Source of the DNA: Perna viridis
Taxonomy: Eukaryota
Reading direction: 5' to 3'
Length of the DNA: 64,000 bases
NCBI GenBank assembly: GCA_037379345.1
Contig: CM074524.1
Span: forward strand, 6,855,635-6,919,634
Shown: in pieces, positions 1 through 33,000 of the stretch
Layout: every line of letters starts with the position of its first letter
Position numbering within the stretch: position 1 is the stretch's first letter
Made by a program: the position numbers

Positions 1-3000
1 GACACAAATAAACATTTTTTTTTTACTTTCCATTGAGCATCATTCATAATAAATCCAAATTAAGAGCATATCAAAACCCAATAAGATATTGAATACTTAC
101 TGAGGTCCACTAACAAAGAAAGAACCAAAGTTGACAGTGCCTTCTGGAGATGTTTTCAGCGTTTGAGGAGCTGGACTCAGCTAAAATAGAAAGACAACAG
201 TTCAAGAAACATACATGTACATCATATGTTTGTTACTATTTTTTTAATGTGTTTTTATTCAGAAGTATTTTCTGAATATCTACATAGTTTCATCAAATCT
301 GGTGCAGTAGTTTATTATATCAGGTACTTTACCTTAATCTTAGTGTCCTTAGCCATATGCATCTATATCAGGTACTTTACCTTAATCTTGGTATCCTTAG
401 TCATCTGTATCTTTATATTCGTGGACTTTACCTTAATCTTGGTATCCTTAGCAATCTGTATCCTTGTATCAGGTACTTTACCTTAATCTTGGTATCCTTA
501 GCTATCTGTATCCTTATATCAGGGACTTTACAAGGATTGTCATCGGCATCACAGATTTGTACAAGAAGGGGTTTGCTGATTTTGTTGTTATTAAGAACAG
601 TCACAGGCTGAAAATTAATCAAAACAATCATAAGATACATGTACATGAATTTGTAAGATTGCACAACAAATCATGTAATAAATGGTTGGTTCACTCAAAG
701 TAGCACTCCAGCTAAGAATCATGCAAAATGTGATTCACGGCTGGTAAGCCTACATATATTATTTTTTATACTTTGTTTAAAATGTTATAGTTAACAGAAA
801 TTAACATGTGACTTTTCATATAACCCATGCTCATAGGAGATACAAACTATATAGAATGTACTGTAGAATTCAATATTAAAGGAGACAATTCAATAAATGT
901 CACAAAAATACAATAGAAACTGTTGGATTTTCCATGTTGATTATCTTCTAAGAGCACTCCTTGTGGACTCTACTCCCGTACCGCAAGATGATGAAGAGCA
1001 GACAGATTGAAAAGAATAATTAAAAATTTCATCATATAGACCTATAAAGTAACTTAATAACAAAAATAAAAATATGTAGCTTTTTTAAAGGTGTATCACA
1101 TTTTACAGATTTTGCATGATTCTCAAAAGACTGCTACTTAATCTTTCTGATACATTTTCTTACACGAGCTAAAATATTTCTTGGTTTCCACACATTCCCT
1201 CCCACTTTTCATGGGTATATTATTACAAAATCAATGAAAATGCAATTAAATGTATAACCCTTAAGTTCAATTATCTCCCTTTAGAGTAGTCAGACACTAA
1301 CTATGTTCCTTCATACAGATCTACATATGATGCCCAACCTTCCTATAAAATTTAATCACAATTCCTTAAGCAGTTTAAGAGGAGTTTCCCAAATGACATT
1401 TAAAATGTTAAGTTGGATTATCTTCCTTCTGCGTGTTAGTCCTTCATGAACCTGCCTCGTACTCAAGTTACACACCTAGCCAGATCTTCATTGTGCTAGA
1501 TCTTCATTTCACAGAAGCAACAGCCTGCAGGTAGGAATGCAATCCCTTTCAGACTCATTCTTCTGACTCTGAGCCAACCAGTCATCACTCTATCCCCATC
1601 AATTCCCCATGCCTGGTGGAGAAACAGTCTCTACCAATTCTAAAGTTGTTGGTTTGACTTAACAGCAAAGATTCGACCCCATGACCTCCCACACTTAAGA
1701 GAAGTAGGTCACCCAGAGGTCACCCAGGAAGTTGATTTATTACTTACTTGATTAAGATCCCATCCAGGTGCTATTAGTTTAGCTGGAGGTCCAGATACAA
1801 GTTGTATCTTACAAAAGTCTCGATGTTCTCTCCACTGAATCTTTATATCCTTGATTCCGACTTTAACTCCAACAAACTGGATCCCCTTTATCACAAATGT
1901 ACCCTAAACGACAAAAAAAAAAATTATTACAATAAGATGATTAAATATATCCCAGGGTAAACAAAGGAAGTGAAAACAGTTGAAATTGGAAGTTACTGTA
2001 CAATAAAATAAAGAATCATAAAACTAAAATTCTGACTTGAAAAAGTGGAATTCAGCTTTAAAACAGAAGAAAAGCAGGCTGATACCAATACATTAAGCAG
2101 AAGAGCTTGCTGACCAAGTGCACAGTAACCAATTTATATAGAATTCAAATATTGGGATTTGTCATATTCCAGCAGAAGATTTTCCATTGAAATCAACATT
2201 TTTACAAGAAATGTTAAAGAATGGCTCCTTGATTTTCTGAACATCATTAAAGAAGCCTGTTCTCAAAATCTGAATTATAATCACAACAATCTTGGTGATT
2301 GAAAGGAACTGTAACTCCTAAGCTGCTATACCTCCAAGACAGTTAGTGAGAAACTGATTTGGACCCAAATGACTCATAACATGATATTACGAAACTTTGA
2401 GAAACCATAATTTTATAGCCATAAATAAAGGTACCTCCACAGTTATCAAAATTATGACTGTTAAAATACTGTAACCGTAATATTTTTTGCTGTTGTTAAT
2501 TTTTGGTGGATTATGTCAAGTCAAAATATTCGCAGGTATAAATTTTGGTGGATTATGTCAAGTCAACATATTCGCAGGTATAAATTTTGATAGATTATGT
2601 CAAGTCAACATTTTCGCATGTATAAATTTTTATAAAGCTTCAAAAAATTATTAGTATCAGAGGCTGTTATAAGTCAATTTTGCAGGTACAATTTTTTTCC
2701 GCTTTTCTGTCCATCGTGAAAATAGCAAAAATTAGTACACCACAAAAATTAATAAGTTCAATGCATACATGAAACAAAACCAGTGGATCATACATGTACA
2801 TTAAATTCCTGAGATTACATATCCTTTTAAGATACACACCTTTGATTGGATAACCTTTATTTTATCAGATTCCAATCCATCTGCAGTTACACTGAACTCA
2901 CTGGTGGTATTTTTTGGCAGCTAAAGAAGAAAAAAATAAATATAATTAAAGAACCTTAGTGAGCGTGCTCACATACCCCACACGTCCTCATGTTGGATAC

Positions 3001-30000: not shown

Positions 30001-33000
30001 TTTACACTTCTTCTTTCATTTAGGAGGGTATTTCAATGAGATCAGTGTTCTCCCCAGGCCATTTTAGTGCTATACTTTGCAGCACTATGATTTCTTAGCA
30101 CTGTGCTATCTGTAATTAATTTTAGTCAGAATGCACTATGGGCACTGTGCTATAATTTTGGAGGAAGGCCAAAAGAGCTGCGCTTTACCAGTAAGCAATG
30201 TGCTATTCAAAAATTATGGGAACTCAGTGTTTGAAACTGAATTTTTTGTCAACACAGACCCATCATAATTTTACATAGAGTGCACTGTACATTTTAAGGC
30301 AACTTGAGCCAATTTCATCATAGTCCTGCTTTATTTTACACAGACTCGGTCTGAATGTCTACTGATAATTTCTTTCACTGGAAATGGAATAATAAGTACT
30401 TCCAAGTAAATATAAATGTATAAAATCTTACCCTAGTGGAAGTACCAATGAAGAAAACAGCTTGTTTCCCGCCAACACCAAAGTAAGATATGTCACTGTT
30501 CAGAGAGAGCGGGACCTCTGGTTGTATCACAGAACTGTTTGAATCTTCATCCTCAATAAAACTCCTAAAAAGCAATATGAATTTAGAATTGCAGATAAGT
30601 TAGTGTACAAGTAAGTTATCTCACTGTTCAGAGACCGTGGGTACTCTGGTTGTATCACAGAACTGTTAGAATCTTCATCTTTTATACAACTCCTAAAAAC
30701 AATAAAAAGATAAAATGTTTCTGCTGAATGTTGAATTGCAGATAAGTTAGTGTACAAGACTGCACAATCTATCATAAGATGATAAATATACCACATGATA
30801 TAAAGAACAAGGTACATTATAGTATGTTTTTGGCCCCCTATTAAGCAGAATTTCTTAACATTGTAATAGAATGTTAGCAATCTGCATTTTAGTTAAGGAC
30901 TCAATGTGGAACAACAACATTACTATATTAGAATTTTGTGTTAGTTCTTGTTGAGAAATGACAAGTCTATCATAGTTAAAAACTCAAGTTTTTGCAAAAA
31001 TAGCTAAAATTTGGTACAATATTGATAACATTTTTCAAACTTGTGATGCCTGTGCCAATGTAGACCCTCCAAAGCTATAGGAATTCTGATAAAATAGACA
31101 AAAACCCTTCAGAATATCAAGATACTACATGAGTCTACTTGTGTTATTGTGGAATGGATAATTTACTTACTTATTTGTAAAATTTTAGAAAACCACCTAT
31201 TCTGACCAATAATCATGACTTAAATACACAGTACAGATAATTCACAGGTGTAAACAATTAAACTTTAGAATTAACACTTTTGTTCAGCAAGTAAAAGATT
31301 GCTCCAACTCAAATATCAATTTTCATAAAAAAAATGGGCCAATTTCACCACTAAACGTACCTAAACCTTTACATTTCAGACACTGTTAGGTAAGATATAA
31401 TAGTTCCCTAACTCAGTGAAGCCTCATTAAGAACTATGAAATAATACCCTCTGGTGTCTGATATCTCAAACTTGTATGGGTGTTAGATTTGTTAATAACT
31501 TACACTTTATCCCGTTTGTCTTTTCTTATGAACTTGGACAGCCTGTAAATGGCCCAGTTGTTCAGTTGTCGTGGTGTCATTCCTTTACCATTATCTATCA
31601 CAAATATACACGGGTTCTTCTCATCGAAGTGCTGAAAAATAATAAAACAATCTCAAAACATTGAACATTTACAAGTGGTATTTGCCAATCACAGTCTTTA
31701 TTATTTCCCTAAAAACCATGCTTCCACAATCACGAAAGCAGAAATCTAATTGACTGATTAGAAAACTCATCAGAACAGAATTTCGAAATGAGCATTGTTA
31801 CGATCCTAAATGCAGAGCATAGGACAGAATGGAACGATTAGTATGTGCAATTTTAATTGGATTGAATCTCCTCAAAACAGATATGCATTTCCAATAAACA
31901 TCAAGTTTGTTACATGTATACTTTCTAAGGTATGGGACACAACTCTTACAAATCATTGGAACGTTTGTATTTACTATTGTACAACAATCTCAGTTAAGCA
32001 TCAAAGTAAGTTGGACTAATTTAATTCTGTTTCAAAGAAAAGCTTAAAAGTCTTTGGTGAAATTGAATATGATACATACATATCACTGATTTGAAGAATT
32101 ATGTACCAGACCCTAGGTCAACCTCCTTAAACAAGAACTACAGAACCAGATAGATTTTTGTCTTTTATGAAAAGATTCACGTCATTTATTTTGGGACTTT
32201 TAACAACTTGATTTATAGAATGGGTTTTGCTGAAGACCATGTGGTGACCTGTAGAAGTTTAATTGTTCGTTGCTTGGCTTTTGGTGGATGAATGTCTTAC
32301 TGGCAATCATATCACATCTCCTATTTCTATATAGATGTCCTTGAGTTAAAATTACCTAGGACCACATTCTTAAGAGTATACATAACTTAATGTTACAAAG
32401 ACATCCTTAAAATTATGATCTTTGATCTTTTCCATGTTTTTGCTTCCAAGGATATACTTGCATAAAGTTCAGTAACCTAAGAAAAACCAACATTTAAAAT
32501 ACCAATAGGATTCCTGATTTCTTTCTTTAAATTCCTAAATGAAGACAATTATAGAGTGTTCATAAGAAAATACCAAATGCTTTTCATAACTTTATCAAAT
32601 CTATTCATAAATTACCTACCAGTCTGAGCTCAATTTTTCTTGGCCCTTCATTTTTGGCTGTGGCTGATAGAGCATTATCTATCAATTCTGCAAAAGCATA
32701 GGCTGAAAAAAAAACATATTAAAATGTACACACTGAAATTATTCATATATCTTAACTTTGCCCTACTCACTCAAGAGCTTAACATTAAAATTCATAGTAT
32801 ATTTTTTAGTATGCAAGTGGATATGGCTTTGATAAAAAATGAAAAGAAAGAGATTACTAGTCTTTCTAAAATTAATGTAGATGACTACATGCAGTGAATC
32901 TAAGGATGATGTATCTTTAAGATATACTGAATTAATTCTAAGAAAGTTTTTTTTTCCCATGTTAAGTGTCAGTATCTGTAAGAACCAAGCAGTGGATGAA

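What the first reader, a model, noticed from the sequence alone, without database searches (positions are those of the whole stretch)
317..30760. Recurrent tandem amplification of exon-intron junctions in SMCHD1 (five separate arrays)
Seen: repeat units straddling a splice site at the exon 30 donor (x4), exon 23 donor (x3), exon 21 donor (x~14), exon 8 acceptor (x5) and exon 6 acceptor (x2). The units are unrelated in sequence, and the three donor arrays share a ~50-53 bp period. In each case only the copy adjoining the intact exon keeps the exon whole. Inference: either junctions are duplication hotspots, or such duplications survive because the extra copies fall into the intron. They create decoy splice sites, copy-number-variable splicing efficiency and raw material for intron sliding.
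Basis: partly seen in the sequence, partly recalled or inferred. Interest (0 to 1): 0.7.

Follow-up and report, generated by a model that had tools for sequence, protein, structure and literature searches.

The report
Splice-junction minisatellites in an SMCHD1 gene
Five separate short tandem arrays in one non-human SMCHD1-like gene each copy a piece of exon together with its splice site into the neighbouring intron, a known kind of repeat that is unusually frequent here.

Summary
They lie on the minus strand in a 31-exon SMCHD1-like gene that I do not take for human. Three arrays repeat a donor junction: exon 30 (50 bp x4.4), exon 23 (49 bp x~3) and exon 21 (53 bp x14). Two repeat an acceptor junction: exon 8 (72-98 bp x5) and exon 6 (128 bp x2). 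The copies are 74-96% alike, so they are old and not assembly stutter. Each array exists only at its own site in the window.

Single arrays of this kind are already known. The human F7 intron 7 VNTR is the studied case, where only the first donor is used. This is therefore a new member of a known kind.

Whether junctions are hotspots stays open. 5 of 16 arrays in the gene straddle a junction, against 1.6-2.1 expected (P 0.002-0.04 by null model; 0.25 under a naive null). Purely intronic arrays also lie nearer to junctions than chance (P 0.01-0.05).

One new detail: in exons 30 and 21 the array starts exactly one period inside the exon, at a donor-like hexamer. This hints at microhomology-driven duplication. 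The effect of the decoy sites on splicing could not be tested.

The parts
101..40725 (-). SMCHD1-like gene, exons 1-31 of my model. It runs off the low end of the window. Exon 1 starts at the ATG at 40725.
   Evidence: The exon chain is phase-consistent, with 31 of 31 GT donors and 30 of 30 AG acceptors. Pfam SMCHD1_S5 matches exons 10 and 11, and HATPase_c_3 matches exon 5 weakly at 0.0031. PDB 6mw7 matches exons 6 and 8.
482..607 (-). Exon 30 (126 nt). Authentic donor AAG|GTAAAG, with the intron G at 481.
315..531 (-). Array A1: 50-bp unit x4.4. Unit U0 is the last 50 nt of exon 30 (531-482) and begins GTAAAGT. U1-U3 and an 18-nt partial unit lie in intron 30. All 4 decoy joints read AAG|GTAAAG, the same as the authentic donor.
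   Evidence: TRF. Unit alignment gives U0 vs U1 47 of 50 identical. Register test. Decoy scores.
13167..13303 (-). Exon 23 (137 nt). Authentic donor AAG|GTCAGT.
13018..13199 (-). Array A2: 49-50-bp unit, about 3 copies plus one decayed copy. The last 33 nt of exon 23 are part of the first unit. Decoy donors are AAG|GTTGGT and AAG|GTCTAT.
   Evidence: TRF 13066-13199, self-BLAST 13056-13199, alignment. Homology further into the exon is not significant, P=0.13.
15787..15886 (-). Exon 21 (100 nt). Authentic donor AAG|GTAAGT.
15086..15843 (-). Array A3: 53-bp unit x14, with a 106-bp higher-order period. Unit U0 is the last 52 nt of exon 21 (15838-15787) and begins GTTAGT. 10 of 13 intronic units keep GT, and 3 of 13 have the authentic 9-mer.
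   Evidence: TRF, unit cutting, alignment, identities, decoy scores, register test.
27166..27323 (-). Exon 8 (158 nt). Authentic acceptor taatttag|CCAGGTG.
   Evidence: Mouse 6mw7 aligns from the first residue of the exon.
27292..27680 (-). Array A4: five copies of the intron 7 end plus the first ~32 nt of exon 8. The upstream units are 76, 80, 98 and 72 nt long. 3 of 4 upstream decoys keep the AG.
   Evidence: TRF, self-BLAST, unit listing and scores.
30432..30564 (-). Exon 6 (133 nt). Authentic acceptor ctttttag|GAGTT.
   Evidence: Matches mouse 6mw7.
30481..30758 (-). Array A5: two copies at offset 128. Each holds the intron 5 end plus the first 84 nt of exon 6. The upstream decoy acceptor is at 30692.
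   Evidence: Self-BLAST, sequence, scores and translation.

Best explanation
These are genuine, fairly old, locally born minisatellites. Each began as a tandem duplication of about 50-130 bp that included an exon end and its splice site, and each then grew by unequal exchange.

They persist because one complete exon with its own splice site remains at the exon side of the array. Every extra copy is removed with the intron. Donor arrays would rely on use of the first (most upstream) 5' site, as shown experimentally for the human F7 intron 7 VNTR. Acceptor arrays would rely on the copy joined to the intact exon.

The exon-borne unit is held constant by selection on the protein, and it keeps re-seeding the array through unequal exchange. 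This keeps junction arrays recognisable for longer than purely intronic ones.

Five occur in one gene because the locus is rich in minisatellites (16 arrays in 40.6 kb) and because of this filter. Any true junction preference is at most modest.

Shown: the arrays, their registers, the decoy sites and the stop codons. Inferred: which sites are used, the neutrality of the extra copies, and the re-seeding.
For: - Existence and anatomy.
- The copies have diverged (74-85% TRF matches; 76.8% for A5). This means age, not assembly stutter.
- The units are local. None of the 5 arrays has a copy elsewhere in the window, whereas 3 of 11 intronic arrays do.
- The exon parts are ancestral coding sequence. 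Mouse SMCHD1 (6mw7) aligns across the repeated parts of exons 6 and 8.
- The A5 decoy copy still encodes the arginine seen in mouse, where the working exon now has leucine. So the copy went from exon to intron.
- Any decoy use is unproductive. In-frame stops lie 52, 22 and 7 nt past the three authentic donors, and every upstream acceptor decoy reads into a stop.
- Re-seeding: in A3 units U2 and U4 are 91% and 94% identical to the exon unit, while the adjacent U1 is 77%.
- There is no sign of selection on the decoy donors. The 9 splice-site columns have mean identity 0.86, against 0.87 for the other 44 columns.
- Precedent: F7, IFI6 (6-16), CBS, LMNB2 and PDGF minisatellites whose first monomer spans an exon-intron boundary, with only the most upstream F7 site used (PMC1557585; abstract and passages read).
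Against: - The straddling count exceeds every constrained null (5 of 16 against 1.6-2.1).
- Wholly intronic arrays also sit closer to junctions than random. Their median distance is 118 nt against 352 (P 0.014). P is 0.026 with the LINE excluded and 0.047 in the compact part only.
- A1 and A3 begin exactly one period inside the exon. Random breakpoints give this only about 6% of the time per array (my estimate).
- By my crude score, the upstream acceptor decoys are at least as strong as the authentic acceptors. A5 scores 7.1 against 4.1, and A4 scores 0.3-1.8 against -0.6. Silent passage is therefore not assured on the acceptor side.
- No RNA data were available.
Confidence: 0.62

Rival explanations
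1. Junctions are true mutational hotspots. Tandem duplication would be driven by microhomology between the authentic 5' splice-site motif and a donor-like hexamer inside the exon, about 50 nt upstream. The array is then born in exact register with the junction, and each unit starts with a donor.
For: - The last 50 nt of exon 30 form a full unit starting GTAAGT-like GTAAAGT. The last 52 nt of exon 21 form a full unit starting GTTAGT.
- Homology to the intronic units is strong up to that point (0 of 5000 shuffles reach it) and absent beyond it (P 0.81 and 1.0).
- Arrays straddle junctions and lie near them more often than the nulls predict.
- Microhomology-mediated tandem duplication is described as a general source of tandem repeats (PMC13167724, abstract and passages read; bioRxiv 10.64898/2026.02.28.708716, search listing and abstract start only).
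Against: - Only 2 of 3 donor arrays are in register. A2 reaches 33 of 49 nt, and its further block has P=0.13.
- The acceptor arrays are ordinary straddles (32 of 72-98 nt and 84 of 128 nt) with at most about 3 nt of joint microhomology.
- A1 ends with an 18-nt partial unit, which simple arm-to-arm duplication does not predict.
- The identity of the exonic and intronic hexamers may be a result of the duplication rather than its cause.
- The statistics are post hoc and come from one gene.
Confidence: 0.2
2. The decoy arrays are functional. They could be clusters of U1-binding or 3' splice sites that tune SMCHD1 output through unproductive splicing and nonsense-mediated decay, or that reinforce exon definition.
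For: - Many decoys are as strong as the authentic sites. In A1, 4 of 4 have the identical 9-mer, and in A3, 3 of 13 do. The A5 decoy acceptor scores higher than the authentic one.
- Every decoy use gives a premature stop, as poison splice products do.
Against: - Decoy splice-site columns are no better conserved than the rest of the unit (0.86 against 0.87).
- The five units are unrelated in sequence and differ in length.
- In the F7 case the pseudo-sites stay silent (PMC1557585).
- There are no expression data.
Confidence: 0.08
3. The arrays mark intron gain or intron sliding by tandem duplication (the Rogers-type model). A duplicated exon segment containing AGGT would have created or moved the intron.
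For: - The present intron starts of exons 30 and 21 are copies of exon sequence.
- Tandem duplication as a route to new introns is documented in other species (PMC4974935 and PMC2891723; search listing and abstract starts only).
Against: - The introns extend well beyond the arrays, and the downstream exons share no homology with the units.
- The periods 50, 49 and 53 are not multiples of 3, so a shift by one unit would break the frame.
- Exons 6 and 8 align with the mouse protein across the repeated exon parts without length change.
Confidence: 0.04
4. The arrays are an assembly artefact, meaning a collapsed or expanded repeat produced by the assembler.
For: None specific. Reads were not available, so copy numbers cannot be verified.
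Against: - Copies within each array differ by 4-26% and carry indels. Stutter or mis-joining of identical reads does not produce this.
- Five unrelated arrays show the same anatomy.
Confidence: 0.03

Closest known systems
Human F7 intron 7 37-bp VNTR. PMC1557585 lists the same kind for IFI6 (6-16) intron 2, CBS intron 13, LMNB2 and PDGF intron 4.
   Same: An intronic minisatellite whose first monomer spans the exon-intron boundary, so the authentic donor is followed by a row of identical or near-identical pseudo-donors. A1, A2 and A3 have exactly this anatomy (paper).
   Different: - Here three donor arrays and two acceptor-side arrays lie in one gene within 30 kb.
- The F7 unit holds 4 exon nt. 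A1 and A3 hold a whole period of exon sequence (50 and 52 nt).
- Use of only the first site and copy-number polymorphism are shown for F7 but are untested here.
- One literature search for acceptor-side cases returned no such paper among the 12 it listed of 77 matching.
Microhomology-mediated tandem duplication (MTD)
   Same: Short segments duplicated in tandem, then expandable into arrays and depleted from coding sequence by selection (PMC13167724). The A5 joint shares about 3 nt (CTT) between the exon and intron breakpoints. A1 and A3 start and repeat at a 6-7-nt donor-like motif.
   Different: The arms cannot be read back with certainty in old, multi-copy arrays. The words 'splice' and 'intron' occur 0 times in the two MTD papers I searched, so a link to splice motifs is my inference.
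Intron gain by tandem duplication of an AGGT-containing exon segment
   Same: Exon sequence copied in tandem supplies splice signals, and the transcript stays unchanged after splicing.
   Different: No new intron is bounded by the two copies here. The arrays sit inside pre-existing longer introns, and the downstream exon is not homologous to the unit.
Tandem exon duplication and mutually exclusive exons
   Same: Local tandem copies of exon sequence together with splice signals.
   Different: The units carry only 32-84 nt of one exon end and only one of its two splice sites. None is a whole exon.

Membership tests
Junction-spanning intronic minisatellite (F7 IVS7 type) | Head-to-tail array of units of tens of bp inside an intron | tested here: met
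   TRF periods are 50, 49, 53 and 72-80. The 128-bp two-copy repeat was found by self-BLAST.
Junction-spanning intronic minisatellite (F7 IVS7 type) | The first monomer spans the exon-intron boundary | tested here: met
   Junctions 481/482, 13166/13167 and 15786/15787 lie inside the first units. The mirror form holds for acceptors 27323/27324 and 30564/30565.
Junction-spanning intronic minisatellite (F7 IVS7 type) | The authentic splice-site sequence is reiterated in the intron | tested here: met
   - A1: 4 of 4 decoy 9-mers are identical to the authentic donor.
- A3: 10 of 13 keep GT and 3 of 13 are identical.
- A2: 2 of 2 keep GT.
- A4: 3 of 4 keep AG. A5: 1 of 1.
Junction-spanning intronic minisatellite (F7 IVS7 type) | Only the exon-adjacent (most upstream 5') site is used in vivo | not testable with these tools
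   There are no transcript data. Indirectly, any other choice meets an in-frame stop.
Junction-spanning intronic minisatellite (F7 IVS7 type) | Copy number is polymorphic (VNTR) | not testable with these tools
   Only a single sequence was available.
Microhomology-mediated tandem duplication product | Unit flanked by short identical arms (R-S-R-S-R) | tested here: inconclusive
   A1 and A3 start at a donor-like hexamer that recurs at every unit start. The A5 joint shares about 3 nt. A1 ends in an 18-nt partial unit, and A2 is not in register.
Intron gain by tandem duplication (Rogers model) | Intron bounded by the GT of copy 1 and the AG of copy 2, with the downstream exon homologous to the unit | tested here: not met
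   The introns run beyond the arrays. No array region hits any sequence outside itself, including the next exon.
SMCHD1 (gene identity) | GHKL-type ATPase followed by the SMCHD1 S5-fold domain | tested here: met
   All tested exon by exon:
- HATPase_c_3 matches exon 5 weakly (E 0.0031, below Pfam's cutoff).
- SMCHD1_S5 matches at 2.1e-17 and 6.1e-12.
- 6mw7 matches exons 6 and 8.
SMCHD1 (gene identity) | C-terminal SMC hinge domain | not tested
   The gene leaves the window after exon 31, so the hinge would lie outside it.

The most novel reading that the evidence does not exclude
Splice junctions themselves seed minisatellites. The 5' splice-site motif and a donor-like hexamer inside the exon would act as microhomology arms. 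The array is then born in exact register with the junction, which replaces the start of the intron with exon-derived sequence (splice-site turnover). The selected exon unit keeps feeding the array. If this holds generally in this genome, exon-intron junctions would be preferred birthplaces of tandem repeats and a steady source of decoy sites on both sides of introns.
Probability: 0.17. Interest if true: 0.6.

Novelty: new member of a known kind. Interest (0 to 1): 0.4.

Why it matters
Minisatellites that reiterate an authentic splice site are natural experiments on how the spliceosome picks one site among identical ones. The few studied cases are single donor arrays in human genes.

One gene carrying three donor arrays and two acceptor arrays would allow several tests in a single transcript. 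The arrays hold up to 13 decoys, and some decoys are as strong as the real site. The tests include first-site rules for donors, how upstream decoy acceptors are avoided, and whether copy number leaks into nonsense-mediated decay.

If the register and proximity signals hold genome-wide, they would tie the birth of tandem repeats to splice motifs.

Tried and rejected
- Free gene-finder: my own dynamic-programming gene-finder placed false exons inside arrays A3 and A4 and inside the LINE. I replaced it with a run restricted to 29 coding-looking reading frames and curated by hand.
- Pfam on 10 middle and late exons, including exons 21 and 23: nothing usable at E up to 1. Exon 30 itself was sent to no protein search.
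- PDB search with the exon 21 reading frame: only chance antibody hits at E 0.4. The donor-array exons therefore have no tool-based cross-species check. My impression that the exon ends match the vertebrate protein without length change is recall only.
- Register of A2: rejected, P=0.13.
- Homology beyond one period into exons 30, 21 and 23: absent, P 0.81, 1.0 and 0.46.
- Selection on decoy donors: no signal.
- Dispersed-element origin of the five arrays: rejected, no other copies in the window.
- Naive random placement of arrays: not significant, P 0.25.
- tRNA scan: no genes.
As a result no orthologous locus, species name or second copy of the gene was examined.
- Paper supplements were not consulted.
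- Structure and complex prediction were not used, because they do not bear on the question.
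Full report
**What the window is**

The window has no N. Its G+C is 0.30-0.41 and its CpG observed/expected ratio is 0.42.

On the minus strand lies a gene whose reading frames match SMCHD1, tested exon by exon:
- Pfam SMCHD1_S5 matches exon 10 at 2.1e-17 and exon 11 at 6.1e-12.
- There is a weak GHKL ATPase match in exon 5 (E 0.0031, below Pfam's cutoff).
- Mouse SMCHD1 structure 6mw7 matches exon 6 at 3.6e-10 and exon 8 at 2.9e-09.

By my count of the printed alignments, these two exons are about 68% (27 of 40) and 53% (28 of 53) identical to the mouse protein. 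Thirty-one exons fit into 40.6 kb. I therefore do not take the contig for human. It looks like a distant, probably non-mammalian, orthologue. The species could not be named, because no eukaryotic collection was open.

All protein searches were made exon by exon. I built, translated and searched no joined (spliced) model. The whole-protein architecture therefore stays unchecked, and the hinge domain would lie outside the window anyway.

**Gene model**

A free gene-finder of my own gave false exons. A run restricted to 29 coding-looking frames gave a phase-consistent chain. I corrected it by hand at exons 1, 7 and 11-14.

The result is 31 exons with 31 of 31 GT donors, 30 of 30 AG acceptors and 3995 coding nt.
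- exon 6: 30564-30432
- exon 8: 27323-27166
- exon 21: 15886-15787
- exon 23: 13303-13167
- exon 30: 607-482

**The observation**

All five arrays are present.

*A1 (315-531).* The unit is 50 bp, with 4.4 copies. Each unit ends AAG and the next begins GTAAAG.

*A2 (about 13018-13199).* The units are 49-50 bp. There are three clear copies and one decayed copy.

*A3 (15086-15843).* The unit is 53 bp, with 14 copies and a 106-bp higher-order period.

*A4 (27292-27680).* There are five copies of the end of intron 7 plus the first ~32 nt of exon 8. The upstream units are 76, 80, 98 and 72 nt long.

*A5 (30481-30758).* There are two copies, 128 nt apart, of the end of intron 5 plus the first 84 nt of exon 6. 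TRF missed this one, and self-BLAST found it.

The units are unrelated to each other and occur nowhere else in the window. By contrast, 3 of the 11 wholly intronic arrays (2497, 3165, 20451) have relatives elsewhere and are probably carried by mobile elements.

Copies differ by 4-26% and by indels. This speaks for age and against assembly stutter.

**Direction of copying**

The repeated exon parts are ancestral coding sequence. The mouse protein aligns across them in exons 6 and 8.

The intronic A5 copy still encodes the arginine found in mouse, at a position where the working exon now has leucine. So exon sequence was copied into the intron and not the reverse. The duplication also predates that substitution.

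**Decoy sites**

- A1: 4 of 4 decoy 9-mers equal the authentic AAG|GTAAAG.
- A3: 10 of 13 units keep GT, and 3 of 13 equal the authentic AAG|GTAAGT.
- A2: 2 of 2 keep GT.
- A4: 3 of 4 upstream decoys keep AG. Their scores (0.3-1.8) are at or above the authentic site (-0.6).
- A5: the decoy scores 7.1 against 4.1.

The scoring matrices are my own rough ones, built from recalled consensus frequencies.

Reading past the authentic donors meets in-frame stops after 52, 22 and 7 nt. Every upstream acceptor decoy reads into a stop. Any decoy use would therefore be unproductive.

Within A3, the nine splice-site columns are no better conserved than the rest of the unit (0.86 against 0.87). I see no selection for or against the decoys.

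**Is it more than chance?**

I collected every local tandem array in the gene from TRF and self-BLAST. There are 16, leaving out one inside the LINE. Five of them straddle a junction.

| Array set / null | Observed | Null mean | P |
|---|---|---|---|
| All arrays, whole-array null rejecting placements that bury more than one unit of exon | 5 of 16 | 2.0-2.1 | 0.033-0.036 |
| All arrays, seed-unit null rejecting wholly exonic units | 5 of 16 | 1.6 | 0.014-0.015 |
| TRF-only set | 4 of 12 | 0.9-1.2 | 0.010-0.018 |
| Without the three arrays that have dispersed copies | 5 of 13 | 1.1-1.3 | 0.002-0.004 |
| Compact part of the gene only | 5 of 14 | 2.06 | 0.040 |
| Naive unconstrained null | 5 of 16 | 3.5 | 0.25 |

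The 11 wholly intronic arrays also lie nearer to junctions than random. Their median distance is 118 nt against 352 (P 0.014). P is 0.026 with the LINE excluded and 0.047 in the compact part only. Two of them start 9 and 11 nt after the donors of exons 20 and 19.

These results point the same way but are marginal. They rest on one gene that was picked because it looked odd.

In A1 the last 50 nt of exon 30 are a complete unit, 47 of 50 identical to the first intronic unit, and it begins GTAAAGT. In A3 the last 52 nt of exon 21 are a complete unit, 50 of 53 identical to unit U4, and it begins GTTAGT.

Homology to the intronic units is strong up to exactly that point (0 of 5000 shuffles reach it). 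It is absent in the next 20 nt upstream (P 0.81 and 1.0).

So the present first nucleotides of introns 30 and 21 are copies of exon sequence. The arrays are in exact register with the junction.

With random breakpoints the exon share of a unit should be uniform. A share within 2 nt of a whole period has a chance of about 0.06 per array. Two of three arrays doing so has a chance of about 0.01. This is my estimate and it is post hoc.

A2 does not share the property. It reaches 33 of 49 nt, and the block further in has P 0.13. The acceptor arrays do not share it either (32 of 72-98 nt and 84 of 128 nt).

**How it most likely works**

Each array began as one small tandem duplication that included a junction. 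It then expanded by unequal exchange.

The proximal dimers of A3 show continuing exchange with the exon-borne unit. U0U1, U2U3 and U4U5 are 91-96% alike, while neighbouring units are 74-81% alike. Selection holds the exon-borne unit constant, so it can keep the array young and detectable.

The extra copies ride in the intron. For donors this fits the published behaviour of the human F7 intron 7 VNTR. There the first monomer spans the boundary, the pseudo-sites are functional but silent, and only the most upstream site is used. The same paper lists IFI6 (6-16), CBS, LMNB2 and PDGF as further examples (PMC1557585; abstract and passages read).

For acceptors the mechanism of avoidance is unknown. 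The decoys look competent, so some leak into nonsense-mediated decay is plausible.

Which sites are used, and whether the extra copies are neutral, are inferences.

**Rivals**

*Microhomology hotspot (0.2).* The in-register arrays suggest duplication between a donor-like hexamer in the exon and the authentic donor. This is microhomology-mediated tandem duplication, a process described as a general source of tandem repeats (PMC13167724, abstract and passages read; the bioRxiv preprint 10.64898/2026.02.28.708716 was seen only as search listing and abstract start). Neither paper contains the words 'splice' or 'intron', so the link to splice motifs is my inference. Against it:
- A2 and both acceptor arrays are ordinary straddles.
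- A1 ends with an 18-nt partial unit.
- The shared hexamer may be an effect of the duplication rather than its cause.

*Functional decoys (0.08).* There is no conservation signal, and the units are unrelated.

*Intron gain or sliding by duplication (0.04).* The introns extend beyond the arrays. The next exon is not homologous to the unit. The periods are not multiples of 3.

*Assembly artefact (0.03).* The copies have diverged too much for this.

**Comparison with what is known**

Each array on its own is a member of the known class of junction-spanning minisatellites. All sequence-level features of that class were tested and met. The in-vivo features (first-site use and polymorphism) could not be tested.

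What is new here is the number of arrays (five in 30 kb of one gene), the two acceptor-side arrays, and the exact register of two donor arrays. One literature search for acceptor-side arrays and three searches for junction-spanning repeats showed no paper on several such arrays in one gene, nor a genome-wide enrichment test, among the rows they listed. These are searches of an open-access library and not proof of absence. Supplements were not consulted.

**Verdict**

This is a new member of a known kind, and the open question is whether junctions seed such arrays. Interest 0.4.

Noticed in passing
window 8382-11721 (+), inside intron 23: A LINE-type retrotransposon copy with PHD finger, endonuclease and reverse transcriptase (RVT_1 at 1.8e-33). 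It is read in four overlapping frames, so it is frameshifted.
   Followed up: partly
window 8884-9107 (+): A 36-bp x6.2 tandem repeat with 98% matches, lying inside the endonuclease reading frame of that LINE and in frame (12 residues per unit). It is a young array and shows that tandem amplification is recent in this genome.
   Followed up: no
window 49139-49372 and 53530-53745 (-); 47311-47388, 52755-52833, 54126-54205 (-): A ribosomal protein S8e gene (Pfam 1.6e-12 and 2.6e-08), with three SNORD51-like C/D box snoRNAs on the same strand in or beside it (68.6, 62.7 and 52.2 bits).
   Followed up: no
window 16177-16220 and 17667-17764 (-): Two small arrays (22 bp x2 and 36 bp x2.7) begin 9 and 11 nt after the donors of exons 20 and 19 without clearly including them. 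Each shares 6-7 nt with the end of its exon.
   Followed up: partly
window 2497-2630, 3165-3914, 20451-20669: These intronic arrays have relatives elsewhere in the window (33439-33487; 46793-47061; 18318-18390 and 44667-44718). They are probably satellites carried by mobile elements rather than duplications born in place.
   Followed up: partly
window 36482-36680, 57377-57586, 60322-60783, 62136-62331, 62971-63179, 5995-6031: A dispersed repeat family, 79-97% identical, on both strands and with an internal 322-bp direct repeat at 60322-60783. No Pfam identity was found.
   Followed up: no
window 27366-27395 (-), A4 unit next to exon 8: This decoy is a 30-nt in-frame stretch bounded by AG and GTATGT, so it looks like a pseudo-microexon. 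It lies 42 nt upstream of the real acceptor. Whether it is ever spliced in is unknown.
   Followed up: no
window about 30611-30692 (-), A5 upstream copy: The decoy exon 6 copy has a stronger acceptor score than the real exon (7.1 against 4.1). It also contains a GTGAGA donor-like site near its end, so it could act as a poison exon.
   Followed up: no
window 56636-57014: A 72-bp x5.2 tandem array with 86% matches, outside the two recognised genes.
   Followed up: no
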